A program made the translations under genes and the position numbers. Positions 45,664 through 64,000 of a DNA stretch of 64,000 nt are shown piece after piece. Source of the DNA: an uncultured archaeon (GTDB lineage Archaea > Altiarchaeota > Altiarchaeia > JAFGQM01); contig CAZQBY010000002.1 in assembly GCA_964592405.1 (NCBI GenBank), positions 58,353-122,352 on the forward strand, given 5' to 3'. The notes beneath the pieces were generated by a model that did no database searches, was not told where the DNA came from, and was given only the letters and a program-made list of their open reading frames with translations. Position 1 is the stretch's first letter. Each line of letters begins with the position of its first letter.

Positions 45664-46242
45664 ATGGCCGAGAGTGTGTTAGAGATTCGCATCCACGGAA
45701 GAGGGGGCCAGGGCGGTAAAACTGCAGCACAGTTCATAGCCGAGGCAGGGGTTGACGAAGGAAAATTTGTACAGGCCTTCCCGGAGTATGGGCCAGAGAG
45801 AAGCGGTGCCCCTGTGACAGCCTACGCGCGCATATCCAACAAACGCATCCGCCTCTACCAGCCAGTGCACAACCCGGACATCGTCCTAGTCATTGACCCC
45901 ACGCTCATAGGCCCGATAGACGTTACCGAGGGCATGAAAGATGATGGCATACTCATAGTCAACACCCCCAAATCTCCAGAGGAGATAAGAAAGCAAACAA
46001 AATTTAATGGCCGGATATACACTGTGGATGCCACCAAGATATCCATGGATGCCACAGGGACCAACAAACCCAACGTCCCCATGCTGGGGGCTATGATAAG
46101 GGTCACAGGAGTCATAAAGCTGGACAGTATTGAGAACAAGATACGCCACAAGTTTACCAAGAAACTGGGCGAGGAGAGAACACAGGCCACTGTGGATGCC
46201 ATCAAACGGGCATATAAGGAGGTTGTGGGTTATACAGGCTAG
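45664..46242 (+). CDS. porC: Pyruvate/2-oxoacid:ferredoxin oxidoreductase gamma subunit
   Basis: EIRIHGRGGQG and YGPERSGAPV motifs. Confidence 0.93.
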   Translation: MAESVLEIRIHGRGGQGGKTAAQFIAEAGVDEGKFVQAFPEYGPERSGAPVTAYARISNKRIRLYQPVHNPDIVLVIDPTLIGPIDVTEGMKDDGILIVNTPKSPEEIRKQTKFNGRIYTVDATKISMDATGTNKPNVPMLGAMIRVTGVIKLDSIENKIRHKFTKKLGEERTQATVDAIKRAYKEVVGYTG

Positions 46243-46255
46243 CACTATACTTAAG

Positions 46256-46588
46256 ATGACAGAGGACAAATTGGTAGAGAACAAATCCAAGGCATTATTA
46301 CGGAAGAAGGGCTGGAGGGAGATACCGATAGGTGGGGTAATTGAAAACACGCCCACCTCCCTAATAAACAAAACTGGTGCGTGGCGTGCATTCAGACCTG
46401 TCTGGGACAAAGAGAAGTGTATAAACTGCATGATATGCGTAGCCTACTGCCCGGACATGTGCATACCTGTTGAGGGCGACAAACGTCTAGAGACCAATTT
46501 TGACTATTGCAAGGGTTGTGGTATCTGTGCCACAGTGTGCCCAGTCAAATGCATCAGAATGGAGGAGGAGGGTAAATTCAGAGAATGA
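46256..46588 (+). CDS. porD: Oxidoreductase delta subunit (2x[4Fe-4S])
   Basis: TGAWRAFRP, CINCMIC..CP and CKGCGIC...CP motifs; ATG at 46256. Confidence 0.92.
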   Translation: MTEDKLVENKSKALLRKKGWREIPIGGVIENTPTSLINKTGAWRAFRPVWDKEKCINCMICVAYCPDMCIPVEGDKRLETNFDYCKGCGICATVCPVKCIRMEEEGKFRE

Positions 46589-47751
46589 GCAGAGTGAGGC
46601 CTTTGACAGGAGCAGGAGCAGTCGCGGAGGCAATGAGGCAGATAGACCCTGATGTAGTTGCAGCATATCCCATAACCCCCCAGTCGCCGATAGTTGAGGC
46701 CTTTGCCAAATTTGTGGCAGATGGGAGAGTTAAGGCAGAAATGATAAGGGTTGAGTCAGAACATTCCGCACTGAGCGCAGTAGTAGGCTCTGCCTATGCC
46801 GGAGCCAGATCAATGACTGCCACATCCTCGGCCGGACTTGCGCTTATGCATGAAGTACTTGGTGTGGCCTCCGGATTAAGGGCACCAATCGTAATGGCAA
46901 TCGCCAACCGCGCGCTGTCAGCCCCGCTCAACATTCACTGTGACCACTCTGACACTATGAGTGCACGTGAGATGGGATGGATCCAGATCTATGCTGAAAA
47001 TGCACAGGAGGCCTATGAGAATATCCTGCTATCCGTGAGGCTGGCCGAACACAAGGATGTCCTCACCCCCGTAATGAGCTGTATGGATGGTTTCATAACC
47101 AGCCATGGGGTGGAAAATGTCAACATTTATGAGGATGATGTAGTCAGCAGGTTCATAGGAGAATACAGATTTCCGTTTAATCTTCTGGATTATAAACATC
47201 CGATAACAGTAGGCCCCATAGAATTAACAGATTACCTCTTTGAGACCAAGCGTCAGCAGGTCGAAGCCATGAAGAACGTGCCAAAAGTCCTGCCGGGCAT
47301 CGCCAAGGAGCTGTCCAAGATAACGGGCAGTAAGTTTGATGTTGTGGAGGAATACAAAACCAAAGATGCAGATGTTGTAGTAGTGACTATGAGCTCGGTT
47401 GCAGGAACAGCAAAGACTGTAGTAGACAAAATGCGTAAAAAGGACAAAAAAGTGGGTCTCCTGAAGCTCAGAATGTTCCGTCCGTTTCCATACAGGAGGG
47501 TAGCCAGTGTGCTCGATGGCACCAAGGCTGTAGCCGTTCTTGACAGGGCCTTTTCTTATGGTGCACATGCACCCATATATTCAGATGTTCTTAATGCATT
47601 ATTTGATTTGAAATCCAAACCAAAAATACAGAGTTATGTCTTTGGGATTGGCGGAAGAGACATAAGCGACTTCCACATAGAGGCTGTCTTTGAGAGATTG
47701 CTCAGGGGGGACATAACTGGGAAAGAGGAATACATAAATCTAAGAGAATGA
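46585..47751 (+). CDS. porA: Oxidoreductase alpha subunit
   Basis: AYPITPQS, ESEHSA and ANRALSAP motifs. Confidence 0.94.
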   Translation: MSRVRPLTGAGAVAEAMRQIDPDVVAAYPITPQSPIVEAFAKFVADGRVKAEMIRVESEHSALSAVVGSAYAGARSMTATSSAGLALMHEVLGVASGLRAPIVMAIANRALSAPLNIHCDHSDTMSAREMGWIQIYAENAQEAYENILLSVRLAEHKDVLTPVMSCMDGFITSHGVENVNIYEDDVVSRFIGEYRFPFNLLDYKHPITVGPIELTDYLFETKRQQVEAMKNVPKVLPGIAKELSKITGSKFDVVEEYKTKDADVVVVTMSSVAGTAKTVVDKMRKKDKKVGLLKLRMFRPFPYRRVASVLDGTKAVAVLDRAFSYGAHAPIYSDVLNALFDLKSKPKIQSYVFGIGGRDISDFHIEAVFERLLRGDITGKEEYINLRE

Positions 47752-48671
47752 ACTATAAGGACTTCGCAAAGAAGGAAGCAAGACTGGCCCCGGGCCATGG
47801 CCTATGCGGAGGATGTACACAACCCATGATAGTCAAGACTATCTTGGGTGCAACAGACAAACCCGTGGTTGTGGCAAACGCCACCGGCTGTCTGGAGGTA
47901 TCGACCACAATCTATCCAAAATCCGCTTGGAGGCTTCCTTGGATACACAGTGCGTTTGAGAATGCAGCCGCAACCATCGCAGGCGTTGAAACAGCCTATA
48001 AATCCCTCAGGAAGCAGGGAAGGATCAAGGAGGACATTAAGTTTGTGGCCTTTGGGGGGGATGGAGGAACCTATGATATTGGTTTGCAGTCACTCTCCGG
48101 AGCCCTTGAGAGGGGGCACGATTTTCTCTACGTCTGCCTTGACAACGAGGCTTATATGAACACAGGGGGACAGAGATCAGGTGCCACACCGTATGGTGCC
48201 TCTGCCACTACTGCACCCGCCGGAAAACTCATCCAAGGGAAGATGGAGTGGAAAAAGGATTTGATAAGAATCTGTGTCGCCCACAACATACCCTACGCAG
48301 CGCAGGCGTCCGCCGGCAACTGGTTGGACCTTGCGAACAAGGCGGAGAAGGCCTGGACCATTGAGGGGCCCAAGGTGCTCTTGGTCTACTCACCCTGCAC
48401 CACGCTCTGGGGTTTTCCAAACAGCAAGGCCATAGAGATCTCCAAACTGCTCATCGAGACGGGTGCGTGGCCATTATATGAGGTGGAGAACGGCAAGTAC
48501 AGGCTCACATATAAGCCCAAGAAGCGCAAGCCTATAGCAGAATATCTCAAAACTCAGAGGCGTTTCAAACACCTGCTCAAACCAGGAAATGAGGAGCACA
48601 TCAGGCATATACAGGAGGGCATTGACAAGTACTGGAATGAGATCCTCAGGCTCTGTGGCGAAAGTGAGTGA
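47748..48671 (+). CDS. porB: Oxidoreductase beta subunit
   Basis: GHGLCGGC, ATGC, GGDGGTYDIG, DNEAYMNTG and SPC motifs. Confidence 0.94.
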   Translation: MNYKDFAKKEARLAPGHGLCGGCTQPMIVKTILGATDKPVVVANATGCLEVSTTIYPKSAWRLPWIHSAFENAAATIAGVETAYKSLRKQGRIKEDIKFVAFGGDGGTYDIGLQSLSGALERGHDFLYVCLDNEAYMNTGGQRSGATPYGASATTAPAGKLIQGKMEWKKDLIRICVAHNIPYAAQASAGNWLDLANKAEKAWTIEGPKVLLVYSPCTTLWGFPNSKAIEISKLLIETGAWPLYEVENGKYRLTYKPKKRKPIAEYLKTQRRFKHLLKPGNEEHIRHIQEGIDKYWNEILRLCGESE

Positions 48672-49268: not shown

Positions 49269-50894
49269 TTGGCTGGAACCTCAGACATAGAGCCAACGAC
49301 CGGATACAAGCAGCCCCTTCCACACAGGACTAGCTCACTCTGCCCGGAGTGCAAGAGGAAGATAGACGCATTGGTATACGCTGAGGGCGATATAGTCTGG
49401 ATGAAGAAGGAATGTCCAGAGCACGGCGAGTTCAGGGAGAAGTACTGGGAAAGTGTGAAGATGTACGAACGGGAGCGTCGCCATGGCGCTGTTGGAGTGC
49501 CCACCTTAAACCCCAATGTTGACACCAACGGCCTGAACTGTCCATTTGACTGTGGACTCTGCACCCGCCACAAAAGCCACACTGCACTGGCCAACATAGT
49601 AGCGACCAATCGGTGCGATCTGAGTTGCTGGTACTGCTTCTTCTACGCGAAGGAGGGCCAGCCCATATATGAGCCATCTCTGGAGCAGATAAGGGCCATG
49701 GTAAGAAACCTGCGTCAAGAGAAGCCGGTTCCCTGCAATGCAGTCCAGATAACAGGGGGAGAACCCACCCTTAGAAAGGATCTCATTGACATCATAAGGA
49801 TATGCAAGGAAGAGGGCATCGATCACGTGCAGGTCAACACCGACGGCATAAACTTCGCCTTCAATCCCGATTTGGTGCGGCGCATACGGGAGGCAGGCAC
49901 CAACACCGTCTACATGAGCTTCGACGGCATGACTCCGAAGAGCAACCCAAAGAATCACTGGGAGGCCCCATATGCCATAGAGAACTGCAGAAAGGTCGGA
50001 ATGGGAATTGTGCTTGTTCCAACAGTCATAAAAGGCATCAATGACGGAGAAGTCGGCCAGATGATTAACTTCGCTCTGAACCATAATGACGTCATACGTG
50101 GCGTCAACTTCCAGCCGGTCTCGCTGGTCGGGCGCATGCCCCAGAAGCAGAGGGAGCAGCAGAGGATAACCATACCCAAGATCATAGAGAACATTGAGGA
50201 ACAGACCAATGGTATGGTAACCAAGGAGGATTTCTACTCCGTCCCAATAGTATCCCCCATAACTGAGATTGTGGAAGTCATGACGGGTAAGAGTAAATAC
50301 CGTTTGAGCACACACTTTGCCTGTGGGATGGCCACCTACATCATAAGAGGTAATGACGACAAGATAGTCCCCCTCCCGCAATTCGTGGATGTGGAAGGGC
50401 TTATGGAATATCTGCACGAGACTGCGGAGGAGAGGAAAGGCAAGGGCAAAATATGGACAGGCCTGAAAATCTGGAGGAATATCGGGCGCTTCATTGATAA
50501 GAGTAAACAGCCCAAGGGGTTCAACCTGAACAAGATGCTCATGCAGGCGCTCATAAAGCATGACTACCGCTCGCTGGGTATCCTGCACCACCGCTCGCTG
50601 TTCATAGGCATGATGCACTTTCAGGACCCCTACAACTATGATGTGGAGAGGGTTGAAAGATGCTGTATACACTACACCATGCCCGACGGCCGAATAATAC
50701 CATTCTGCGCATTCAATGTCATTCCTGAGATTTACAGAGACAAGGTGCAAGCTGAATATGCCATCCCGGCAGGGGAATGGGAAAGGAAAACCGGGCGCAA
50801 GCTGGCAGAAGACAAATACAAAAGGGATGCCAAGAAACTGGAAGAAGGGCAGATTTACAAGGACATTTACACCCTGAAAGACTATTTCAAATGA
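49269..50894 (+). CDS. tes: Tetraether lipid synthase (MJ0619-family radical SAM)
   Basis: TSSLCPEC...CPEHG, CPFDCGLC..HKSHTALANI, NRCDLSCWYC, HFACG and RCCIHY...PFC motifs. Confidence 0.85.
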   Translation: MAGTSDIEPTTGYKQPLPHRTSSLCPECKRKIDALVYAEGDIVWMKKECPEHGEFREKYWESVKMYERERRHGAVGVPTLNPNVDTNGLNCPFDCGLCTRHKSHTALANIVATNRCDLSCWYCFFYAKEGQPIYEPSLEQIRAMVRNLRQEKPVPCNAVQITGGEPTLRKDLIDIIRICKEEGIDHVQVNTDGINFAFNPDLVRRIREAGTNTVYMSFDGMTPKSNPKNHWEAPYAIENCRKVGMGIVLVPTVIKGINDGEVGQMINFALNHNDVIRGVNFQPVSLVGRMPQKQREQQRITIPKIIENIEEQTNGMVTKEDFYSVPIVSPITEIVEVMTGKSKYRLSTHFACGMATYIIRGNDDKIVPLPQFVDVEGLMEYLHETAEERKGKGKIWTGLKIWRNIGRFIDKSKQPKGFNLNKMLMQALIKHDYRSLGILHHRSLFIGMMHFQDPYNYDVERVERCCIHYTMPDGRIIPFCAFNVIPEIYRDKVQAEYAIPAGEWERKTGRKLAEDKYKRDAKKLEEGQIYKDIYTLKDYFK

Positions 50895-52811: not shown

Positions 52812-54170
52812 TTATTCTTTTCTGGCACCCACTAGCTTGGTGCAGATGTCTTTGTCATCGACACAATAATATTTCAGTTCAAGATAATCGCCAAATTCCT
52901 CTTTAAGCTTGTCTAGGAGGTGTCTCTGGTCCTCACAGGCCTGAGAGCCCGGCCTGTGGAATACCTGCAATAGGACAGTGTCATTATCTGGTTTGCAAGA
53001 TTCCTGCCCGGTCTCATACATCGAGAATATGTACTCCGTGGGCAACTGCACTTCTATATCCCCTGTTGCGTTGCTGAATACCCCCAAGGGTTCGCACAGT
53101 TGCCTTGGATTGCCATTATTATACATACAGGTAAGGGTCTTAAGAACATTTTCTTCCAAACCCTGCGGAACTTCGCCGGCCTGTTCGGCACTGGCAAGAG
53201 TCCTTGCCAAGGCAAATTTGCAGTTCCATACAAGGCGTGGAACAGATTCGATATTGTAAGCCTTAATCAGAACAGGGTTATATTCATCAAAGGTCACAGA
53301 GCTTTTATCCCTTAACTCATAGCTGTAGCGCAGTTTCCCGGGAGCGATCCTGTCCACATAGACAAAAACCCCCTTTCTGACATCCTCCTCCGGGATGTCC
53401 AGCTCATTGGTTACTATACCCTTCCTGAATCCATGTCTGTAGTAATAGCCATTCAGAGTAGTCTTCACAAAGCCGTCTCCTATCTCCAGCCTGTAGGGAT
53501 AAGAGGTTCCGCTACAATTGATTGTTTTAGGTATTGTCATTATATGTCGCTGAATGGCAGTGCCATTTACCCACCGGCCGATAAGGTTTGGTATAATTGC
53601 CTTCTCGTTAAATATCTTGGCACAGGACTGGAAGGTGTTTGGAGTACGCTGCGACCGCATGAACTCATCCGGCCTGAGCATGGCACCGTTGAGGCCTATA
53701 AATTGGAGCTCTAGATTTTCATCCAGAATGACATCAAATGTCCTGTATTCATCGGACCCCTCAATGGGAAATCTCACAATCGTTGACTTTGAATTGTTGC
53801 CAGAAATGATTTCGCCCTGATTGCGGAGTATTACAAAGTGGTTTGTCTCTTCCGCCAGGTCCATAGCATCACTCGCGGAGACTGTGGCTCTTGCTAGTAT
53901 ATGGGCCTTTCCAGAAGTATTTTCCTGTGGTGTTGTAAGAACCAGAATGCCTGCAGTGATTACTGCAAGACCCAATATCACTACAGCATAGTAGAAGAGA
54001 ATACTCCGCTTCCCTTCTGGTTTGCTTCCAGCTTTGGCTTCTGCCTTCTTTAGGTCCTTGGCTCCCGGTTTTGTCTCAGATTCTGTCTGCCTCTTTTCTG
54101 TTTGTTTCTGCTTCTTCTTTTTCCCTTTGTTTTCTTCTACTGCATTCCCTCTGGTTTCTTCTCTGTCCAT
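52812..54170 (-). CDS. Membrane-anchored protein with C-terminal degenerate thioredoxin domain (SxxC)
   Basis: Likely start ATG 54170; charged N-tail, transmembrane helix, then VLLQVFHRPGSQACEDQRHLLDKLKEEF. Confidence 0.75.
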   Translation of the reverse strand: MDREETRGNAVEENKGKKKKQKQTEKRQTESETKPGAKDLKKAEAKAGSKPEGKRSILFYYAVVILGLAVITAGILVLTTPQENTSGKAHILARATVSASDAMDLAEETNHFVILRNQGEIISGNNSKSTIVRFPIEGSDEYRTFDVILDENLELQFIGLNGAMLRPDEFMRSQRTPNTFQSCAKIFNEKAIIPNLIGRWVNGTAIQRHIMTIPKTINCSGTSYPYRLEIGDGFVKTTLNGYYYRHGFRKGIVTNELDIPEEDVRKGVFVYVDRIAPGKLRYSYELRDKSSVTFDEYNPVLIKAYNIESVPRLVWNCKFALARTLASAEQAGEVPQGLEENVLKTLTCMYNNGNPRQLCEPLGVFSNATGDIEVQLPTEYIFSMYETGQESCKPDNDTVLLQVFHRPGSQACEDQRHLLDKLKEEFGDYLELKYYCVDDKDICTKLVGARKE

Positions 54171-54368
54171 TTGCCTTTTTCTCCTTCCCCCTGCCCCAAC
54201 TTTTGAAACCCCTAATCTTGAAAGTAGATATATAAATACCTTGAGTTCGAGGAGATTGCTGGTGAGGCGATTGTCTGTTCTGTTACTCTTCCAAATGCTG
54301 CCTGTCTTTATATGGTAACTGTGTGCCTCCCCCAGATTCAGCAAGCTTACGCATCTTGGAAAGTCTGG

Positions 54369-56578: not shown

Positions 56579-57841
56579 TTAGATATTTTGAAAATCCCTC
56601 AATGACTTTTGGGTGTTGTCATAGAAGTTCTCCCTAAGTGGCTTTTTGTAGAGAGGCCGGCCATACCTTCCACCGCCACCAGCATCATAGAGCATACTGC
56701 CGTTTCTGAAGGACTCTATAATACCACCTATCTTGGAGTCATAATCTTTTAGGTCTGCAATAGGCGTGTCTATGAGTATAGTAATCTCAGGTCCAAATTC
56801 ATTTACCATGGTTTGCCACTCCGCCTGCACTTTCGGGCTGTGCAGGGTTTTCACCTCCCGTGCCATACTTATCACCTCCGCCAAGGGGACTATGTGAATA
56901 TACGGCGGTCTGTGTTCCGGGCGGACAGTCTTTCGTCCATGAGCGAGTTCTCCTATCCTCTCCCTGACGCCCTTCTTGATTACGCCTCCGCACTCAGGAC
57001 ATCTGCGTCCAAGACGGATGGCATCACTAATCCTGAATTTCAGAAAGCAACGCGTGCAAGCAGTTTCATGGTATTTTCCCTCCCGGGGGTTGAGACCCAC
57101 ATTTAGGATGAATCTCCGCCCGTTCTTCCGCTCTATGGCCTTTTTTATTTCCTTGAAGCTCAGATCTCTCACAAGCAGCCGGTTAAATTCTCTCCCGAGC
57201 CTGTGCGGCCACGGGCTGTGGGCATCGCTGTTGCTCATAAAGGTCATATCCCTCAGCTCCTCAATTCTGTCAGCCATGTCGCTGTCGGCACTCAGACCCA
57301 GCTCCAGGAATCTAACATATCTGAGATTATCGCCATAACACCCGCTCAGAGAGTCGTATGTTTTATAGACTGATGTCCAAGGTGTGAAAGCGTGGCACGG
57401 ACCTATCATCGCATCACAGTCATTGGCCAAGTCCACAAGCTCCTCACCGCTCAGCCCGACCCTCGGACGGCCATCCCTGTCTATGTCTGGCGAGCTCCCC
57501 TTTATATCATCCCTAAACCTGCGGGCACAGTCCAAATCAGGAAATAAGAGGAGGTGGTGCACACGATCCCTGCCCTCAACCTCTGCTGTTATGAGAAATC
57601 TTGTCTTTGAGTTGTTATAGGAATATATGCCATTACCATCATGCTCAAGATTCTTCTCAAGATGCTCCAGCCAGTGAGGGTTTGTGGCGTCGCCTGTTCC
57701 TACAACATCCAGCCCCTTGCCTTCCCCACCCTCGGCTATGCGAGGAATGTTCATATCCCTAGATGTGCCACCGGAATACCTGGAATGTATGTGGAAATCC
57801 ACATTTATTTCTTGCATAGCGGAATCGTCCAAATTGTCCAT
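56579..57841 (-). CDS. endQ: Endonuclease Q (TIGR00375 PHP family)
   Basis: DFHIHSRYS, GTGD, NSDAHS, GREFN and GKYH.TAC.RC...CPECG motifs. Confidence 0.85.
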   Translation of the reverse strand: MDNLDDSAMQEINVDFHIHSRYSGGTSRDMNIPRIAEGGEGKGLDVVGTGDATNPHWLEHLEKNLEHDGNGIYSYNNSKTRFLITAEVEGRDRVHHLLLFPDLDCARRFRDDIKGSSPDIDRDGRPRVGLSGEELVDLANDCDAMIGPCHAFTPWTSVYKTYDSLSGCYGDNLRYVRFLELGLSADSDMADRIEELRDMTFMSNSDAHSPWPHRLGREFNRLLVRDLSFKEIKKAIERKNGRRFILNVGLNPREGKYHETACTRCFLKFRISDAIRLGRRCPECGGVIKKGVRERIGELAHGRKTVRPEHRPPYIHIVPLAEVISMAREVKTLHSPKVQAEWQTMVNEFGPEITILIDTPIADLKDYDSKIGGIIESFRNGSMLYDAGGGGRYGRPLYKKPLRENFYDNTQKSLRDFQNI

Positions 57842-58793: not shown

Positions 58794-60431
58794 TCATCTC
58801 TTCGTGATGTTATATTTGGTAGCCCGCAGGAGGTTGGATATCCGGCGGGGAGGCTCCCCGATTCTCCCGGCCCGGAACAGAATCGCCAATATTACGATTA
58901 TCCCAATAGCAGCAATTATCCACAGCCAAAGCCCTCCACCAACAGCTTCGGGCTTCATGTCCGGTCTTTTGGAAGGTATCGTAGTTTCCATATTGGACGG
59001 CAACTGTTCTGCTGGTGGAGCTTCTCTTAAGAAAATCCTCTTGACTATCGTATCGCCCTTTGGTGTAACATAAGTAAATATCCAGTAGCCGGATTGGTCA
59101 GGAACTATTGTTGTATCTCCATCCTCCAGTCTCATCTTGAAAGAGCTTCCGTCTGGTTTTGTAATTATCAACTCACCATCGACAGCTATGCCACTGGAAT
59201 CCACCAAAGAAACGGTGAGTGTTCGCCCAACCTGAGGATTCTCCGTTCTCACAATAATTTCTATTTCGGCTTCTGGGGGAGTTGTTACATCCCCCCTTGG
59301 ATAGCCCGGCCAGAGATATGCTGTCACGGCTTCAGAAACCTCCTCTTCCTTTTTTGGCTTCTTGCAGTCGCGCCGGCAGGTTCGCCATGTCTCGCCGCAG
59401 TTGCATATCTTGTCCCCACAGTGAGAGACCAGAACTGAGGCAGAAGACTGGGAAGTGGTGGTGCCGTATGGGCCAACAATAGTTGCATTTACCAAGTTGG
59501 TTATGGAAGAGCACGAAGCAGTTGTGGTATAGCTCGTGGTATTGGATGCCCCGGGGGCAAGGAGGCTTATTGTGAAGTTTCTGCCGTTTGAATCGTTCAG
59601 GGTTACATTAACAGTTAACGAGCCTGTATTGTTGACAACTATAGTCCAGTTGAGGATGTCGCCGGGTTCCACTACCGAAGCATCCACTGATTTTGTAACT
59701 ACGACGCTCAGAGCTGTGTAGTTGACAGTCAGCCATGCAAGCGTGGTGTTGGCGCTGTTGCCTGCTGTGTCCTCACAGGCCGCCCAAACAGAGGAGTAAT
59801 TGCCATTGGCTAAGTCCGCCAGACTCCATGTTATATCCATACCGGAAGTGGAATTGACATAGTCAGTACCGTTGAAGTGGAGTGTGCAGTTCATGGCCTC
59901 GGAAGCATGTACGCCTATCCGGGTGTAATTGACATGTATTGTGGAGTTTATATCAGACCAGTTCCAGTCCGGGGCCGGGGAAATTGTGTCCACCCTGAGC
60001 CAATATGGATTAGAGTCTCCAGAGTTACCATACAGGTCTTCACAAGTGTAATAGATGGTGGAATAATTGCCGTTGCCCAGCCCTGTGATATACCAGGTTA
60101 TCTTGGTCGCGTTGCTGGTATTGATATAGTCCGTGCCGTTGAGATGGAGTGTGCAGTTGCCGGTTTCACTCAGAGAGACATTGAAGATGTGGTGGTCTGT
60201 TGATAGGGATGTATTTTTGGGGGAATTGACAGTAATGGAGGGGGGAACATCATCTGTTAGGACCAATGAGACACTGAAGGAGTCTGAAGCCGAATATGCC
60301 CCGGTTCCAGAATCTGCAAACAGAGTAGTAACACTGGCCAGAAGAAATGAAATCGCCAGCACTGCCATGAGGGAGTTTTGTTCCTTCAACTGGCCTCTTG
60401 TCTTTTGTTCATCCACCGGCTGTTTAATCAT
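58794..60431 (-). CDS. Surface protein: Ig-like repeats, DUF11, Cys-rich motif, C-terminal transmembrane anchor
   Basis: Signal or transmembrane N-terminus; two NCTLH.NGTDY repeats; TKSVD..VVEPGD..WTIVVNNTG; CGDKICNCGETWRTCRRDC; C-terminal WLWIIAAIGIIVILAILF. Confidence 0.85.
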   Translation of the reverse strand: MIKQPVDEQKTRGQLKEQNSLMAVLAISFLLASVTTLFADSGTGAYSASDSFSVSLVLTDDVPPSITVNSPKNTSLSTDHHIFNVSLSETGNCTLHLNGTDYINTSNATKITWYITGLGNGNYSTIYYTCEDLYGNSGDSNPYWLRVDTISPAPDWNWSDINSTIHVNYTRIGVHASEAMNCTLHFNGTDYVNSTSGMDITWSLADLANGNYSSVWAACEDTAGNSANTTLAWLTVNYTALSVVVTKSVDASVVEPGDILNWTIVVNNTGSLTVNVTLNDSNGRNFTISLLAPGASNTTSYTTTASCSSITNLVNATIVGPYGTTTSQSSASVLVSHCGDKICNCGETWRTCRRDCKKPKKEEEVSEAVTAYLWPGYPRGDVTTPPEAEIEIIVRTENPQVGRTLTVSLVDSSGIAVDGELIITKPDGSSFKMRLEDGDTTIVPDQSGYWIFTYVTPKGDTIVKRIFLREAPPAEQLPSNMETTIPSKRPDMKPEAVGGGLWLWIIAAIGIIVILAILFRAGRIGEPPRRISNLLRATKYNITKR

Positions 60432-60561
60432 CTGGGTAGTCCATCCCTTTTTTATTTCCTTGCATATTTCCTCCTGCTTTTATCCATCTCTCTGTTTTTA
60501 TTCACCCTTTTATGTTTTTACTCATCTTTTATGTTTTTATTCGCCTTTTTTCCACTTCTGT

Positions 60562-61290
60562 TCATCTATGTCTGTGCATATTCCAGAACCTAATCGACAA
60601 CAGCACTGTCACAGCAACTATGATTAATACTGCAATAACCACCAGCATGCTGCCATCTGCACCTGCACCGGCATTTGTCTGTTTCCTGATTTGTGGCAAT
60701 TCCGTCTGAGGACATTCGCCACAGTCTTCTGGACAGGTCTTGCAGGTCTCATCGCCGTTGCATTCTTTATCACCACACTCCGGCGGCAGGTTGACCGTTC
60801 TGGGAAGCTGGCCACAGCGATCCGGCACTACGGTATCTGAATCCACAACCCTTATGACAAATCCCGAACCTATTTTTCCAACAAGATTAACCATACCCGA
60901 TCCGGAGGGGGGAGCTACACCCTCAACCAAGAAGCTCACCCTATACTCCGCTCCTATCTCCTCACCGGCTGGGGGAGTTATATAGAAGATTATGGCTTCT
61001 GAGCTTCCTTTTGTGGTATTGTAAATCCCGTCTTCCCTCAGATCTACCTGCACGAAGTCCGGCAGAGATGATGGATTCAAGACCAATCTGGCCTGCCCAT
61101 GCTCAATTGTTGGTGATGTAGAAAGCCATATCCTGTGGCAGGTTGTCCCGCCTCTCGGGGCCTTGACCACTTCATCCTCCATATAGTCCTGGATGACACC
61201 TATACTCCCAAAAGCATCGGAAGTTAGGACCATTACCAGTACCAAGACAAGTAGTGGAAGGATCCATGATCCAAGTATTTTCCGGCTCAT
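60562..61290 (-). CDS. Surface protein: signal peptide, one beta-sandwich domain, Cys-rich motif, C-terminal transmembrane helix
   Basis: ITPPAGEEIGAEYRVSFLV...GSGFVIRV; CGDKECNGDETCKTCPEDCGEC. Confidence 0.82.
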   Translation of the reverse strand: MSRKILGSWILPLLVLVLVMVLTSDAFGSIGVIQDYMEDEVVKAPRGGTTCHRIWLSTSPTIEHGQARLVLNPSSLPDFVQVDLREDGIYNTTKGSSEAIIFYITPPAGEEIGAEYRVSFLVEGVAPPSGSGMVNLVGKIGSGFVIRVVDSDTVVPDRCGQLPRTVNLPPECGDKECNGDETCKTCPEDCGECPQTELPQIRKQTNAGAGADGSMLVVIAVLIIVAVTVLLSIRFWNMHRHR

Positions 61291-61381
61291 TTTGTTCCTC
61301 TTATAGTTTGCATTTTATTTTTTATTTGATTTTGTGAGAGGTTTTTGTTTTGTGGAAGTGTTTGATTTTGTGAAAATGAAA

Positions 61382-61398
61382 TGGGGCTTTTCGCCCCA
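61382..61398 (-). terminator. GC stem-loop (TGGGGC-GAAAA-GCCCCA) just after the putative major subunit gene
   Basis: 6-bp stem 9 nt after the 61407 stop, followed by TTTCATTTT on the minus strand. Confidence 0.5.
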
Positions 61399-61406
61399 AA
61401 AGTCAT

Positions 61407-62297
61407 TTACGGATTCTGGTTTCCTGCATTGTATACTGTCAGCACCCAATTCTGTGCAGAATTGTAGGTCTGCGGACTGACTAGAGACGATATCTGCTCC
61501 AGGTATACATAGACATCCTCTGTGCTTCCCTGGCCGATTAACAAACTCGTGCCAGCCACAGTAACAGCTGTGTCGTTTGCAAGTTGCTCGCCCTCTGAGG
61601 CATCAACATCGTTCGCACTGAAATCGCTTGCGGCTATCTTGTCTGTTGCATCTGTTGTCCCTACCAGCTCGTATGCGGTTATGTTCAGGTTTGCGAAGTA
61701 GGCGTTGCCCAGATTCTCTACGGTAACCGGGTCGTCGTCCGCACCCACATTTGTGCTGGTCTGGGAGACTGAACTCCAGCTTATCGAGGCTGGTGTTACA
61801 TCCACAGACTCCAGCCGGTTGTATGTCAGCGTCTGCGTGTCGTCGTTGTCTGAAGCCGAACTGTTATCAACTACTGTACAGTTCACTACCCAGTCAGAAC
61901 CGGACAGGTAGTAGTACTGCATGTTGCCACCAGTGCAGTTCAGGGTTACCGTCGTTGCACTGGAATTGCTTATATTCGTGCAACTCAGGTTTACGACAGT
62001 GCTTCCCTTGCTGACATTACAGTAGGTGGCACTCAGGTTTATGTCTTTCCAGCCATCCTCGTCCGTTACATCTATTGCTACGCTTATTGCGGTTACGCTT
62101 CCTGACGTCGGATTGTAGGTTCCACCATTACCCACTGTTACCGAATTTATGACAGGTGCGGTGTTGCCAAGGACAAGCGACGCGCTGAATGTGTCACTCG
62201 CTGAGTCGGCAGCCAAAACAAGAGTGGCTCCGAAAACAGCGGCAATCGCCAGCGAAAAAAGCGCCAAGCTCATGCTTATTCCATTTCTGTTTCTCAT
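61407..62297 (-). CDS. Secreted two-domain protein, putative major filament/surface subunit
   Basis: GGAGG Shine-Dalgarno sequence; signal peptide; no C-terminal transmembrane helix; ends QTYNSAQNWVLTVY. Confidence 0.85.
   Translation of the reverse strand: MRNRNGISMSLALFSLAIAAVFGATLVLAADSASDTFSASLVLGNTAPVINSVTVGNGGTYNPTSGSVTAISVAIDVTDEDGWKDINLSATYCNVSKGSTVVNLSCTNISNSSATTVTLNCTGGNMQYYYLSGSDWVVNCTVVDNSSASDNDDTQTLTYNRLESVDVTPASISWSSVSQTSTNVGADDDPVTVENLGNAYFANLNITAYELVGTTDATDKIAASDFSANDVDASEGEQLANDTAVTVAGTSLLIGQGSTEDVYVYLEQISSLVSPQTYNSAQNWVLTVYNAGNQNP
61545..61828. repeat. 284-bp segment, copy 1 (identical to 62492-62775)
   Basis: Line-by-line comparison at offset 947 shows no mismatch; similarity with mismatches continues about 60 nt further. 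Confidence 0.9.
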
Positions 62298-62350
62298 TCC
62301 CTTTTCCTCCTTTTTGTTTTGTTTGTTTTTTGTGTGTTATGTTGTGACTT

Positions 62351-64000
62351 TTATGGATTTGAGTTCTCTGCTCCGTAGACCATCAGCTCCCACGGCGATA
62401 CCGAACTGTATGACTGCTTGCCCAGCGGGGCGTTTGAGATCTGCTCCAGATAAACATATACGTCCTCTGTGCTTCCTGCTCCGATTAACAGACTCGTGCC
62501 AGCCACAGTAACAGCTGTGTCGTTTGCAAGTTGCTCGCCCTCTGAGGCATCAACATCGTTCGCACTGAAATCGCTTGCGGCTATCTTGTCTGTTGCATCT
62601 GTTGTCCCTACCAGCTCGTATGCGGTTATGTTCAGGTTTGCGAAGTAGGCGTTGCCCAGATTCTCTACGGTAACCGGGTCGTCGTCCGCACCCACATTTG
62701 TGCTGGTCTGGGAGACTGAACTCCAGCTTATCGAGGCTGGTGTTACATCCACAGACTCCAGCCGGTTGTATGTCATATTTGTTGATGATTTGTTGCTTGC
62801 AGAGTTGTTGCTCTGGTCATATACCGTGCAGTTCACCTCCCAGTCATCTCCGCTCAGATAGTAATACTGCATGTATCCCGTGCAGGATAATGCTATGGTA
62901 GTGGAGCTTGAGTTTGTCAGGTTAGTGCATGAGCTCAGGTTGACTGTCCTTGAGCCCTTCGTGACATTGCAGTAGGAGTTGGTCCAGTTGACATCCTGCC
63001 AGCCGTCGGAATCGGTGACGTTCATGGTGATGTTTATTAGGGTGGCACCGCCCGATGTCGGATTGTAGACACCGCCGTTGCCAACTGTGATATCCTTGAC
63101 AGACAACGTGGGCATCTCCCCTATAGTGTAGTTGCTCCATGCACTGACGTTGAAGACTACCACAGCAGCGTTTAGAGGGGTGAGATTGTGACAGCATGGG
63201 GTGGTGGTATCATCACAGACCGCTCCATTCCTGAGTATCACCGGGTTGCTGAAGCCCCACTCGTCGATTTCGTAGAGGGTAATGTTGGCAGGCCTGTCGA
63301 ATCCGGGAGCCGCGACGGTGTCCACAGTAACTGTGTTATTGCCTATATAGACTATTGAGCTGATGCCCACATTTAAACTTGAACCAGTCCCGTTGACGGC
63401 CTGCAAGAAGCGTATCTCTCCCTGGTTGGTGTCTCTGAAGTAGACAGGAGAACCATTCTGGCTTATGTTGTAGGTGCCGAGATGCGTGTCTATCAGATAG
63501 GTGATGGTGGTGTCCTGTCCTATATAGAGGTCAGAATAACCAGATTTTGTTACACTTACAGTGATGTTTGTGAAGTTATTCTCGCCGGAAACCGAGCCGC
63601 TTATGTCTATGCCATCCTCGCTTGAGTTGTAGATTGAGATGTTCTCGAATACATTACCATAGGTCGCACTCAGAAGTATACCGTTCTTCGCGGTGTCATT
63701 TATCACGGCATTGGAAAAGGTGTTGTTATAGCCGCCAAGAATCACTATGCCCTTGTTGGAGTTATTGACCAGTTCGATGTTGGTGAAGGAGCAGCCATGG
63801 CACGAGTCGCTGTTACAGAATATGCCATGGTAGGTGTTGTGACTGGATGTTATGTTGTCAGCCGATACATTCACTGTGTCACTCCTGAGATATAGGCCAT
63901 AATAGCCATTTCTAAGGGCGGTTATGTTGGTCAGCACGGCGTGGTCCGACCACCGGATATACACACCGGACTGATGATTGTCATTTGTGACTATGTTCTT
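62351..64000 (-). CDS. Large surface protein: right-handed beta-helix repeats plus the same two C-terminal domains as 61407 (5' end lies outside the window)
   Basis: N..GI.L PbH1-type repeats; PANITLY...PVILRNG..C...C.N...FNVSAWSNYTIG motif; frame open to base 64000. Confidence 0.88.
   Translation of the reverse strand, partial: KNIVTNDNHQSGVYIRWSDHAVLTNITALRNGYYGLYLRSDTVNVSADNITSSHNTYHGIFCNSDSCHGCSFTNIELVNNSNKGIVILGGYNNTFSNAVINDTAKNGILLSATYGNVFENISIYNSSEDGIDISGSVSGENNFTNITVSVTKSGYSDLYIGQDTTITYLIDTHLGTYNISQNGSPVYFRDTNQGEIRFLQAVNGTGSSLNVGISSIVYIGNNTVTVDTVAAPGFDRPANITLYEIDEWGFSNPVILRNGAVCDDTTTPCCHNLTPLNAAVVVFNVSAWSNYTIGEMPTLSVKDITVGNGGVYNPTSGGATLINITMNVTDSDGWQDVNWTNSYCNVTKGSRTVNLSSCTNLTNSSSTTIALSCTGYMQYYYLSGDDWEVNCTVYDQSNNSASNKSSTNMTYNRLESVDVTPASISWSSVSQTSTNVGADDDPVTVENLGNAYFANLNITAYELVGTTDATDKIAASDFSANDVDASEGEQLANDTAVTVAGTSLLIGAGSTEDVYVYLEQISNAPLGKQSYSSVSPWELMVYGAENSNP
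62492..62775. repeat. 284-bp segment, copy 2 (identical to 61545-61828)
   Basis: See copy 1. Confidence 0.9.

What the first reader, a model, noticed from the sequence alone, without database searches (positions are those of the whole stretch)
60258..62204. Shared 12-residue N-terminal strand in two otherwise unrelated secreted proteins
Seen: SASDTFSASLVL (62169-62204) and SASDSFSVSLVL (60258-60293), 10 of 12 residues identical, each just after a predicted cleavage site with ADS and each followed by a short linker to Pro. The codons differ at synonymous sites, so conservation is at the protein level. The alternating F-x-A/V-x-L-x-L pattern is typical of a donor beta-strand. The downstream domains are not alike.
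Basis: partly seen in the sequence, partly recalled or inferred. Interest (0 to 1): 0.68.

Follow-up and report, generated by a model that had tools for sequence, protein, structure and literature searches.

The report
Shared N-terminal docking strand, archaeal surface proteins
Two different secreted proteins of an uncultured hydrothermal-vent archaeon start with nearly the same short beta-strand; the strand marks two genes of a conserved four-gene surface-protein cluster and probably clips the cluster's proteins together, though no binding was shown.

Summary
SASDTFSASLVL (62169-62204) and SASDSFSVSLVL (60258-60293) share 10 of 12 residues. No shuffle in 1000 exceeded 8 of 12, and only 22 of 36 nucleotides match.

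The proteins are p296 (61407-62297) and p545 (58794-60431). They are genes 2 and 4 of a conserved cluster:
- Gene 1 is a giant protein that ends in a two-domain beta-sandwich "module".
- Gene 2 is p296: signal peptide, strand, then the same module.
- Gene 3 is p242: one Ig-like domain and a membrane anchor.
- Gene 4 is p545: signal peptide, strand, variable ectodomain and a C-terminal anchor.

I found this order in 12 genomes, including DPANN archaea. Gene-4 ectodomains differ widely, yet all begin with an F-x-V-x-[LVI]-x-[LVI] strand. About 100 p296-family representatives carry the strand before a GNxAP linker.

A confident AlphaFold model of p296 (pLDDT 94) gives the strand no beta pairing within its own chain. 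Weak covariation links the strand to the module's second domain.

The donor-strand reading is therefore plausible (about 0.4) but unproven. No complex could be modelled and no acceptor was identified. No TasA, DUF1102, fimbrial or other Pfam family matches. I rate it a possible new variant of donor-strand assembly, of moderate interest.

The parts
61407..62297 (-). p296 (gene 2): signal peptide, N-terminal strand, GNTAP linker and a two-domain beta-sandwich module. It has no membrane anchor.
   Evidence: ORF list. Orthologues with 48-81% identity. 1093 representatives match the family profile. AlphaFold model with pLDDT 94. One hydrophobic segment only, at the N-terminus.
62211..62297 (-). Predicted Sec signal peptide of p296 (residues 1-29). 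The likely cleavage is VLA|ADS or AADS|A.
   Evidence: Hydrophobic window at residues 5-34. Helix 9-25 in the model. An A-x-A site is conserved in orthologues, e.g. AYA|GDT and VIA|GDT. The cleavage site is inferred from the -3/-1 rule and was not computed with a predictor.
62169..62204 (-). Strand motif SASDTFSASLVL of p296 (residues 32-43).
   Evidence: Family-wide pattern [TF]-x-[VL]-x-[LV]-x-[IV]-G-N-x-A-P. No DSSP strand or bridge at residues 26-48 in the model. pLDDT falls from 96 (41-50) to 82 (31-40) to 61 (21-30).
61821..62153 (-). Module domain 1 (residues 49-159): a seven-strand Ig/cadherin-like sandwich with an NxAP start and a DxDG loop.
   Evidence: DSSP strands of the model. Conserved columns P48, D79, G82, C106, C121, W136, D144. 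Foldseek finds only generic tandem Ig/FnIII folds.
61422..61805 (-). Module domain 2 (residues 165-292): a beta sandwich and the candidate acceptor of the strand.
   Evidence: Model. Covariation couplings L41-W174, S38-S171, V42-L239 and L43-A208; these are weak, with an effective sequence number of about 101.
60562..61290 (-). p242 (gene 3): signal peptide, conserved mature N-terminus SIGVIQDYMED, one Ig-like (CARDB-like by sequence pattern) ectodomain, a Cys-rich CGDxxCN motif and a C-terminal membrane anchor. It is an alternative acceptor or assembly partner.
   Evidence: Homologues lie between gene 2 and gene 4 in all loci examined. No Pfam or PDB sequence hit for the window protein. A DPANN homologue gives a weak, sub-threshold WxLIP_PGBD match.
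58794..60431 (-). p545 (gene 4): signal peptide, N-terminal strand, TDDVPP linker, two Big_13-like Ig repeats, a DUF11/CARDB-like domain, a Cys-rich motif, a further beta domain, a C-terminal membrane anchor and a basic tail.
   Evidence: Orthologue P0010 has AADSANDTFSVSLTLTD. Relatives with other N-terminal domains lack the strand.
60258..60293 (-). Strand motif SASDSFSVSLVL of p545 (residues 47-58).
   Evidence: Equivalent strands head gene-4 proteins in L002, L005, L008, L010, L012, L014, L020, L024, L028, L034, L038 and L096.
58854..58952 (-). C-terminal transmembrane anchor of p545 (about residues 494-526).
   Evidence: Hydropathy maximum 2.99.
62351..64000 (-). 3' part of gene 1, the giant surface protein, which runs off the window end. 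It has a right-handed beta-helix region followed by a C-terminal module paralogous to p296 residues 50-296. The module is not preceded by a free strand.
   Evidence: Pfam Beta_helix. 75% identity to p296 over 250 aa. The L002 orthologue has more than 1310 aa. Giants ending in the module occur in DPANN loci.
61489..61788 (.). Gene-conversion tract in p296 domain 2. Its twin lies in the giant's domain 2 at 62436-62735.
   Evidence: 300-nt direct repeat at 97% identity. 100% nucleotide identity over codons about 168-248 against 56-71% in the flanks. Domain 2 (residues 165-252) is 100% identical at protein level in the window and in L096 but not in seven other genomes.

Best explanation
The 12 residues are the core of a conserved N-terminal beta-strand extension that stays on the mature protein after Sec signal-peptide cleavage.

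In sequence it resembles the last (G) strand plus inter-domain linker of a tandem Ig/cadherin-like array, but the domain it would belong to is absent.

It marks two gene products of a conserved archaeal surface-protein cluster:
- Gene 2 (p296) is the strand plus a two-domain module.
- Gene 4 (p545) is the strand plus a variable ectodomain plus a C-terminal membrane anchor.

I propose that it works in trans as a docking (donor) strand that adds to a beta sheet of a partner encoded in the same cluster. The best candidate acceptor is the second sandwich domain of the module, which both the giant gene-1 protein and p296 carry. The alternative is the Ig-like ectodomain of p242. Docking would couple the anchorless secreted proteins (giant, p296) to the membrane-anchored p545 and so build a tip-adaptor-anchor surface assembly.

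What is shown and what is inferred:
- Shown: the motif, its conservation, the cluster, and the lack of beta pairing within the chain in the model.
- Inferred: retention after cleavage, binding in trans, and the identity of the acceptor.
For: 1. The similarity is not chance or recent copying: 10/12 identity, shuffles reach at most 8/12, and only 22/36 nucleotides are identical.

2. Orthologues keep an A-x-A site followed by (G/A)D(S/T)A(S)DT-x-x-A-x-L-x-L-GN. In about 100 family representatives at 25-35% identity the strand [TF]x[VL]x[LV]x[IV]GNxAP is kept, with one hydrophobic face.

3. The cluster giant(module) / small(strand+module) / p242-like / gene 4 recurs in the window, L002, L003, L005, L008, L010, L012, L014, L020, L024, L028/L034/L038 and L096. 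Apart from L003, gene-4 proteins have unrelated ectodomains: Big_13 repeats, GLUG-like, Cys-rich, or a 425-aa DPANN type. Yet each starts just after the predicted cleavage site with F-x-V-x-[VLI]-x-[VLI], and, where the C-terminal part is in the locus, carries a downstream membrane segment or a cytoplasmic tail domain. A feature conserved across different downstream domains argues for a common partner in trans.

4. The AlphaFold model of p296 with a 103-sequence alignment has pLDDT 94 and pTM 0.80. Both sandwich domains are confident. Residues 26-48 have no strand or bridge, and confidence decays towards the N-terminus.

5. In large proteins the same module stands without a free strand, preceded by another domain's last strand. 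This sequence arrangement suggests the module folds without the strand.

6. Mean-field covariation on the 103 sequences ranks L41-W174 15th and V42-L239 21st of all pairs. The residue pairs are size-complementary (L-F 39, V-W 18, I-W 14). Twelve strand-to-domain-2 pairs against five strand-to-domain-1 pairs fall in the top 150.

7. The strands of gene 2 and gene 4 are more alike within a genome than between genomes (permutation p 0.003-0.017).

8. There is precedent. TapA and TasA share an N-terminal donor-strand sequence (PMC9674648, PMC10151520). The haloarchaeal tafi model joins a tip protein, an adaptor, a shaft protein and a membrane-anchored terminator by donor strands (PMC11821415).
Against: - I cannot say where the strand lies in the model.
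- pLDDT of 82-96 for residues 31-48 may mean it is docked within its own chain without a regular ladder.
- Neither module domain nor p242 shows an obviously missing strand. Domain 1 has seven strands and domain 2 about ten.
- The covariation signal rests on about 101 effective sequences. There are 33 domain-1-to-domain-2 pairs in the top 150, so many of these may be false positives. The L/F versus V,I/W pattern follows subfamilies.
- The within-genome excess of strand similarity is driven by one clade (window, L002, L005); in DPANN loci it is not seen.
- L003's gene 4 has no recognisable strand.
- A lineage whose giant protein has its own membrane anchor still keeps genes 2-4. Anchoring the giant is therefore not the whole function.
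Confidence: 0.4

Rival explanations
1. The strand is a structural element within its own chain. It packs as an N-terminal strap or cap on the same protein, for example over the calcium-site-like top of the first Ig/cadherin-like domain or in the interface between domains 1 and 2 of p296. Under this reading p296 and p545 resemble each other because they inherited or exchanged an N-terminal cassette of signal peptide, first strand and inter-domain-type linker. No subunit-to-subunit docking is involved.
For: - pLDDT is high for residues 41-48 (96) and fair for 31-40 (82) in the monomer model.
- Couplings V42-I50, T46-D81 and N45-D144 place the linker at the top of domain 1. Strand-to-domain-2 couplings could be contacts within the chain if the domains pack side by side, as pTM 0.80 allows.
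- The BLASTP similarity between p296 and p545 extends into the signal peptide, as expected for a shared cassette.
- The strand-plus-linker sequence looks like ordinary domain junctions inside the large proteins.
Against: - DSSP finds no ladder or bridge for residues 26-48 although the rest of the model is near-perfect.
- The module occurs in hundreds of large proteins without a free strand.
- Gene-4 proteins have unrelated first domains, so they offer no common docking surface within the chain, yet they keep the same strand pattern.
- Synonymous divergence (22/36 nucleotides) shows the 10/12 identity has been held by selection for a long time.
Confidence: 0.3
2. The strand is a recognition tag rather than a building element. 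A cluster-encoded or general factor binds the first residues of the mature protein transiently for processing, export, glycosylation or assembly quality control. The factor could be p242 acting as a membrane-bound holdase, or a dedicated peptidase in the manner of SipW for TasA and TapA.
For: - The strand always lies 3-6 residues after the predicted cleavage site, or after a conserved TGxA motif in DPANN relatives.
- p242-like genes always sit between the two strand-bearing genes. In DPANN loci they overlap the start of gene 4, which suggests coupled translation.
- A PpiD/SurA-like chaperone gene and a DUF87 ATPase gene are conserved nearby in DPANN loci.
Against: - No signal peptidase or other processing enzyme is encoded in the window cluster.
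- There is no match to the SipW-type signal model or to Peptidase_M73.
- Type I signal peptidases need little beyond position +1.
- An amphipathic beta strand kept over such wide divergence is more typical of a structural interface.
Confidence: 0.15
3. The match is a coincidence of low-complexity Ser/Ala-rich sequence after two signal peptides and has no shared function.
For: The motif is rich in S, A, L and V, and the proteins are Ser/Thr/Asn-rich.
Against: - Zero of 1000 shuffles exceed 8/12.
- The same strand recurs in orthologues and in the same two cluster positions in 12 genomes.
Confidence: 0.02

Closest known systems
TapA / TasA of Bacillus subtilis (donor-strand exchange fibre; PMC9674648, PMC10151520)
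   Same: Two secreted proteins with different folds, encoded in one operon, share a similar segment at the mature N-terminus. [quoted passage not shown] TapA's similar N-terminus is proposed to supply the first donor strand. The local sequence is also reminiscent (TasA ..KDATFASGTLDL.. as recalled from memory, a lead only, against ..SDTFSASLVLG.. here).
   Different: There is no homology. Peptidase_M73, the TasA model and the SipW-type signal model do not match. No dedicated signal peptidase gene is present. The domains here are Ig/cadherin-like sandwiches, not the TasA jelly roll. No fibre has been shown.
Haloarchaeal Tat-fimbriae (tafi: TafC tip, TafE adaptor, TafA shaft, TafF membrane anchor; PMC11821415) and DUF1102 relatives
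   Same: An archaeal cluster encodes several subunits with N-terminal donor strands, a tip protein carrying an extra functional domain, and a terminator with a C-terminal membrane span. This tip-adaptor-anchor logic is what I propose here.
   Different: The tafi subunits use Tat signals and a cluster-encoded peptidase (TafD), and are small FimA-like or DUF1102 domains. Here the signals are Sec-type (no twin arginine), no DUF1102 hit is found, the strand-bearing protein p545 itself carries the anchor, and gene 1 is a giant multidomain protein.
Chaperone-usher pilins (N-terminal extension completing a G-strand-less Ig fold)
   Same: A short N-terminal extension with alternating hydrophobic residues precedes an Ig-like domain and resembles a G strand.
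   Different: No usher, periplasmic chaperone or outer membrane exists here. No fimbrial Pfam family matches. The Ig-like domains in the p296 model do not visibly lack a strand.
Archaeal bundling pili AbpA/AbpB, Sulfolobus threads and Pyrodictium cannulae (PMC9245690, PMC9715654, 10.1101/2024.12.30.630787)
   Same: Sec-secreted, heavily N-glycosylated archaeal beta-sandwich subunits are joined by N-terminal donor strands without a chaperone. AbpB is a proposed strand-donating initiator or anchor.
   Different: Those are homopolymeric filaments of a single small subunit with a solved structure. Here neither a filament nor homology is shown.
Classical cadherin EC1 strand swapping
   Same: An N-terminal strand ahead of a Pro-containing hinge (GNTAP, TDDVPP) of a cadherin-like domain with DxDG and NxAP motifs could be exchanged between partners.
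   Different: There is no Trp2-type anchor residue. No Pfam cadherin match reaches significance beyond 1 of 103 members. The partners here would be different proteins.

Membership tests
TasA/camelysin (Peptidase_M73) with SipW-type signal peptide | Match to Pfam PF12389 or the NCBIfam TasA models | tested here: not met
   No PF12389 hit at E<=1 for p296, p242 or p545. The only NCBIfam TasA hit is p545 residues 215-299, E 0.11, 11.9 bits against a cut-off of 450.
TasA/camelysin (Peptidase_M73) with SipW-type signal peptide | Dedicated signal peptidase (SipW-like) in the operon and a SipW-cognate signal motif | tested here: not met
   No peptidase is encoded among the cluster genes or the neighbours examined. 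The SipW-cognate signal-peptide model did not match.
Donor-strand-complemented surface fibres (generic mechanism) | The N-terminal strand is retained on the mature subunit, amphipathic and conserved | tested here: met
   The strand follows a conserved A-x-A site and shows an alternating hydrophobic pattern in about 100 family representatives and 12 gene-4 proteins. Retention is inferred from the -3/-1 rule, not measured.
Donor-strand-complemented surface fibres (generic mechanism) | The strand is not part of the subunit's own fold | tested here: inconclusive
   There is no DSSP strand or bridge for residues 26-48 in a pLDDT-94 model, but pLDDT of 82-96 over residues 31-50 leaves non-ladder packing within the chain possible. 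No coordinates were available.
Donor-strand-complemented surface fibres (generic mechanism) | An acceptor subunit with an incomplete sheet or groove that the strand fills in trans | not testable with these tools
   No multimer prediction was available. Only weak covariation points to module domain 2.
Tafi / DUF1102 archaeal fimbriae | DUF1102 or TafA-like domain; Tat signal in haloarchaea; cluster-encoded signal peptidase | tested here: not met
   No DUF1102 hit. The N-regions lack a twin-arginine motif. No peptidase gene is present.
Chaperone-usher pilins | Fimbrial Pfam domain; usher and chaperone genes | tested here: not met
   No fimbrial family matches except one chance-level Fimbrial_K88 hit in 1 of 103 members. 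The organism is an archaeon without an outer membrane (inferred from the gene content).
Archaeal type IV pilin-like proteins (class III signal peptide) | [KR]-G cleavage motif before the hydrophobic segment, which is retained as an N-terminal helix | tested here: not met
   A KG-[IM]-S-M-T pattern is present in only two orthologues (P0002, P0003). The window protein has N-G, and most family members have charged residues after G plus a clear A-x-A site after the hydrophobic region. p545 has no such motif.

The most novel reading that the evidence does not exclude
A widespread, so far undescribed archaeal surface-assembly system, found in DPANN lineages and in this vent archaeon that carries methanopterin-pathway genes. 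In it, giant adhesin- or enzyme-bearing proteins and small adaptor proteins share a two-domain module. They are joined to membrane-anchored partners by 'orphan G-strand' complementation. The N-terminal strand plus linker of one protein would complete or extend the terminal sandwich of another, recreating a tandem-Ig junction non-covalently, without chaperone, usher or sortase.
Probability: 0.3. Interest if true: 0.75.

Novelty: new variant of a known kind. Interest (0 to 1): 0.55.

Why it matters
If the strand is a docking element, it gives a simple rule for how archaea with no cell wall, sortase or outer membrane hold very large secreted proteins on their surface. For DPANN archaea, which live attached to host cells, it would point to the parts that mount their giant surface proteins. 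It would also define a large unannotated protein family (more than 1000 representatives, no Pfam model) and a conserved four-gene cluster. Finally, it would add a heteromeric, anchor-directed variant to the growing list of archaeal donor-strand assemblies. If the strand only acts within its own chain, the finding reduces to a conserved N-terminal cap in a new family of Ig-like surface proteins, which is useful for annotation but not surprising.

Tried and rejected
- **TasA link.** The local resemblance to the TasA N-terminus prompted tests against Peptidase_M73, TasA and SipW-signal models. None matched.
- **First structure run.** AlphaFold with the 8-sequence orthologue alignment gave pLDDT 48 and was unusable. 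It was replaced by the 103-sequence run.
- **Genome collection.** The scan returned only the one locus already known.
- **PDB searches.** Sequence searches for the module profile, p242 and p545 gave nothing. Foldseek against PDB gave only generic tandem Ig/FnIII folds such as RbmA and integrin alpha (TM 0.2-0.34).
- **Pilin signal.** A type IV pilin (class III signal) reading was considered and rejected.
- **Gene conversion.** I asked whether the giant's and p296's second domains are always kept identical, as a shared acceptor might be. They are 100% identical in the window and in L096 but only 31-64% identical in seven other genomes. Conversion is therefore sporadic and not evidence.
- **Anchored giants.** I asked whether lineages whose giant has its own membrane anchor lose gene 4. 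They do not, so the test did not discriminate.
- **Strand similarity within genomes.** It is significant overall but carried by one clade.
- **First p242 alignment.** It was too diverse for the metagenome scan, so a narrower one was used.
- **Expression.** No RNA runs hold the region, only hydrothermal-vent and marine DNA metagenomes, so expression was not checked.
- **Literature.** Searches found no description of this cluster.

Full report
**1. Checking the observation**

The two peptides exist at the given coordinates, but on the minus strand. The plus-strand frames contain stops. The minus strand reads SASDSFSVSLVL at 60258-60293 and SASDTFSASLVL at 62169-62204.

They belong to two complete ORFs:
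- p296: 61407-62297, 296 aa.
- p545: 58794-60431, 545 aa.

Identity is 10/12. In 1000 shuffles of both proteins the best 12-mer match was 6-8. BLASTP finds only this N-terminal stretch in common (E 8e-4). Only 22 of 36 nucleotides agree and the serines use both codon families. The identity is therefore held at protein level and is not a recent DNA copy.

A six-frame scan of the window finds no further good copy. Both strands are followed by four residues and then Pro.

ADS overlaps the motif in p296 and lies five residues upstream in p545.

**2. Anatomy of the locus**

Four minus-strand genes lie head to tail.

| Gene | Coordinates | Main features |
|---|---|---|
| 1, giant | 62351 to beyond 64000 | Beta-helix region; C-terminal 250 aa 75% identical to p296 residues 50-296 |
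| 2, p296 | 61407-62297 | One N-terminal hydrophobic segment, no anchor |
| 3, p242 | 60562-61290 | Signal peptide, about 130-aa ectodomain, Cys-rich CGDKECNGDETCKTCPEDCGECP motif, C-terminal membrane span |
| 4, p545 | 58794-60431 | Signal peptide, strand, weak Big_13 / DUF11 / CARDB-type Ig domains, similar Cys-rich motif, C-terminal membrane span, basic tail |

All are dense in N-x-S/T sequons: 10 in p296, 24 in p545, and 31 in the visible 537 aa of the giant. There are none in the strand itself.

Downstream neighbours are housekeeping genes: PAC2, GatB/E, PFOR subunits and a methanopterin-pathway radical SAM enzyme. The sequence occurs in hydrothermal-vent metagenomes.

**3. The p296 family**

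A word-indexed search found only seven orthologues. In them the region reads A-x-A|(G/A)D(S/T)A(S)DT-x-x-(A/T)-(S/T)-(L/A)-x-(L/M)-GN-(T/A)-AP.

A full HMMER scan with the family profile found 1093 representatives at E<=1e-3 and 778 at E<=1e-10. They have two architectures:
- About 270-320-aa proteins: signal peptide, strand, module.
- Proteins of 500-3000 aa with the module at or near the C-terminus.

In the about 100 small representatives, a strand [TF]-x-[VL]-x-[LV]-x-[IV]-G-N-x-A-P always precedes the first domain. In the large proteins the module follows another domain's last strand and an (x)N-x-A-P linker.

The p296 strand is therefore an ancestral family feature. In sequence it looks like a G strand plus inter-domain linker whose own domain is missing. 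p545's SLVL-TDDVPPS likewise resembles its internal junction WLRV-DTISPAP.

No Pfam or NCBIfam model covers the module.

**4. Structure**

The first AlphaFold run with eight sequences failed (pLDDT 48). With the 103-sequence alignment A4 the p296 model has pLDDT 94 and pTM 0.80:
- Domain 1 is a seven-strand sandwich (residues 49-159).
- Domain 2 is a second sandwich (residues 165-292).
- Residues 26-48, which include the motif, have no strand or bridge in DSSP.
- Block pLDDT falls from 96 (41-50) to 82 (31-40) to 61 (21-30).

Foldseek finds only generic tandem Ig/FnIII proteins.

I had no coordinates, so I cannot exclude non-ladder packing.

**5. The cluster is conserved and gene 4 always carries the strand**

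The order giant / p296-like / p242-like / gene 4 is found in these places:
- A related uncultured archaeon (L002) and two metagenome contigs (L003, L005).
- DPANN archaea (L008, L010, L012, L014, L096; two p242-family hits carry Nanoarchaeia and Woesearchaeota source labels). There a small cytoplasmic Sigma70_r4-like protein sits after the giant. A lipoprotein-like gene, a CBS protein, a DUF87 ATPase and a PpiD/SurA-like gene lie nearby.
- Further loci among 80 fetched from metagenomes with the p242-family profile: L020, L024, L028, L034 and L038.

Gene-4 ectodomains are unrelated to one another: Big_13 repeats, GLUG-like, Cys-rich, or a 425-aa DPANN type. Eleven of the twelve nevertheless begin, right after the predicted cleavage site, with a strand like that of gene 2 in the same genome.

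| Locus | Gene 2 strand | Gene 4 strand |
|---|---|---|
| window | DTFSASLVL | DSFSVSLVL |
| L005 | DTFTAGATL | DTFVATAEI |
| L024 | SFSVRLDL | QFDVGLQL |
| L038 | YFNVSLTI | GFNVQTVI |
| L014 | NFSANVTV | TFDVSVSV |
| L096 | LNITL | INISV |

Where the C-terminal part is in the locus, the gene-4 protein carries a membrane segment or a cytoplasmic tail domain downstream. L003 is the one exception: its gene 4 shows no recognisable strand.

p545 relatives that carry other N-terminal domains lack the strand.

**6. Evidence on what the strand touches**

*Covariation.* Mean-field analysis on A4 (about 101 effective sequences) gives plausible intradomain contacts at the top of the ranking. It ranks L41-W174 15th and V42-L239 21st. 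Further pairs are S38-S171, L43-A208, V42-I50 and T46-D81. The 41/174 pairs are size-complementary but follow subfamilies. The many domain-1-to-domain-2 pairs in the top 150 suggest substantial noise.

*Strand similarity within genomes.* It exceeds the between-genome value (p 0.003-0.017), but one clade drives this.

*Gene conversion.* In the window, a tract makes p296 codons about 165-252 identical in DNA to the giant's domain 2. The same occurs in L096 but not in seven other genomes. I record this as an observation, not as evidence.

**7. Interpretation**

*Best explanation (about 0.4).* The strand is a docking or donor strand acting in trans among the cluster's products.
- The most likely acceptor is module domain 2, with p242 as the alternative.
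- Docking would tie anchorless module proteins to the membrane-anchored gene-4 protein.
- The strongest arguments are:
  - the strand is conserved at the head of proteins with different first domains;
  - the module occurs without a free strand in the large proteins;
  - the confident model shows no beta pairing of the strand within the chain.

*Rivals.*
- A strap or cap within the same chain, inherited as an N-terminal cassette (0.3).
- A transient recognition tag for an assembly or processing factor (0.15).
- Chance (0.02).

What is missing is any direct view of a complex.

**8. Comparison with known systems**

The logic matches two described systems:
- TapA and TasA, where two different proteins share a donor-strand-like N-terminus (PMC9674648, PMC10151520).
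- The haloarchaeal tafi model of tip, adaptor, shaft and membrane-anchored terminator (PMC11821415).

It also resembles archaeal bundling pili, threads and cannulae (PMC9245690, PMC9715654, 10.1101/2024.12.30.630787).

Membership in any of these families was tested and not met. There are no Peptidase_M73, SipW-type signal, DUF1102 or fimbrial matches, no Tat motif, no dedicated peptidase and no class III signal. Literature searches found no description of this cluster.

**9. Verdict**

It marks a conserved, unannotated archaeal surface-protein system. The donor-strand mechanism is a reasonable but untested inference.

If true, it would be a new variant of a known kind. I score overall interest at 0.55.

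Noticed in passing
window 61489-61788 and 62436-62735: A gene-conversion tract. The DNA of p296 codons about 165-252 (module domain 2) is 97-100% identical to the giant protein's domain 2, while the flanks are 56-71% identical. The same 100% identity of domain 2 between the small and giant proteins occurs independently in DPANN locus L096, but not in seven other genomes.
   Followed up: yes
window 60712-60777 (p242) and 59364-59420 (p545): Both membrane-anchored proteins carry a Cys-rich motif of the form CGD-x-x-CN-x-x-E(T)C-x-x-C-x-x-DC(G-x-C) between the beta domains and the anchor. The L002 orthologues and L024 gene 4 have it too. Its function is unknown.
   Followed up: no
L008 8909-9931; L010 5412-5894; L012 2872-3405; proteins P0037, P0048, P0064, P0069: In DPANN relatives a cytoplasmic protein with Sigma-70 region-4-like helix-turn-helix repeats is encoded right after the giant gene. 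In other lineages the same sequence is fused to the giant or small protein behind a membrane span (module, membrane segment, RRKKK, HTH). This suggests a surface protein wired to a DNA-binding tail.
   Followed up: partly
L014 7001-7978 and more than 521 metagenome loci: DPANN p242-like proteins have a conserved cytoplasmic tail (HHYFHLRNGxSLKNL ... KNDFANW) with a weak DUF5752 match. It also occurs in many other proteins, including gene 4 of L028, L034 and L038. Most of the 80 fetched loci matched only this tail.
   Followed up: partly
proteins P0028, P0030, P0031, P0034, P0037, P0041 and others; L010 7977-9266: Many DPANN family members have an extra motif AGF-x-DWF-x-KITG(K/R)ATS upstream of the strand. 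Many DPANN surface proteins have (L/I)TG-x-A just after the N-terminal hydrophobic segment, possibly the signal-peptidase site.
   Followed up: no
window 58794-64000: The density of N-x-S/T sequons is very high: 24 in p545, 10 in p296 and 31 in 537 aa of the giant. p242 has only one, and the strand has none in this clade. In DPANN relatives the strand often contains a sequon (NVT, NIT, NLT).
   Followed up: partly
window 49269-50894, 45664-48671: A radical SAM enzyme with the HMPTM zinc ribbon (methanopterin pathway) and pyruvate:ferredoxin oxidoreductase subunits are present. Together with the hydrothermal-vent metagenome origin, this suggests a methanopterin-using euryarchaeon rather than a DPANN archaeon.
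   Followed up: partly
window 52812-54344 and 56579-57841: Two long minus-strand ORFs (510 aa and 420 aa) have no Pfam match at E<=0.001.
   Followed up: no
L014 7001-7975: The p242-like protein gives a weak, sub-threshold match to the WxL-interacting-protein peptidoglycan-binding domain (E 6e-4). In Gram-positive bacteria that domain belongs to membrane-anchored members of multi-protein cell-surface complexes. This is a possible functional analogy.
   Followed up: no
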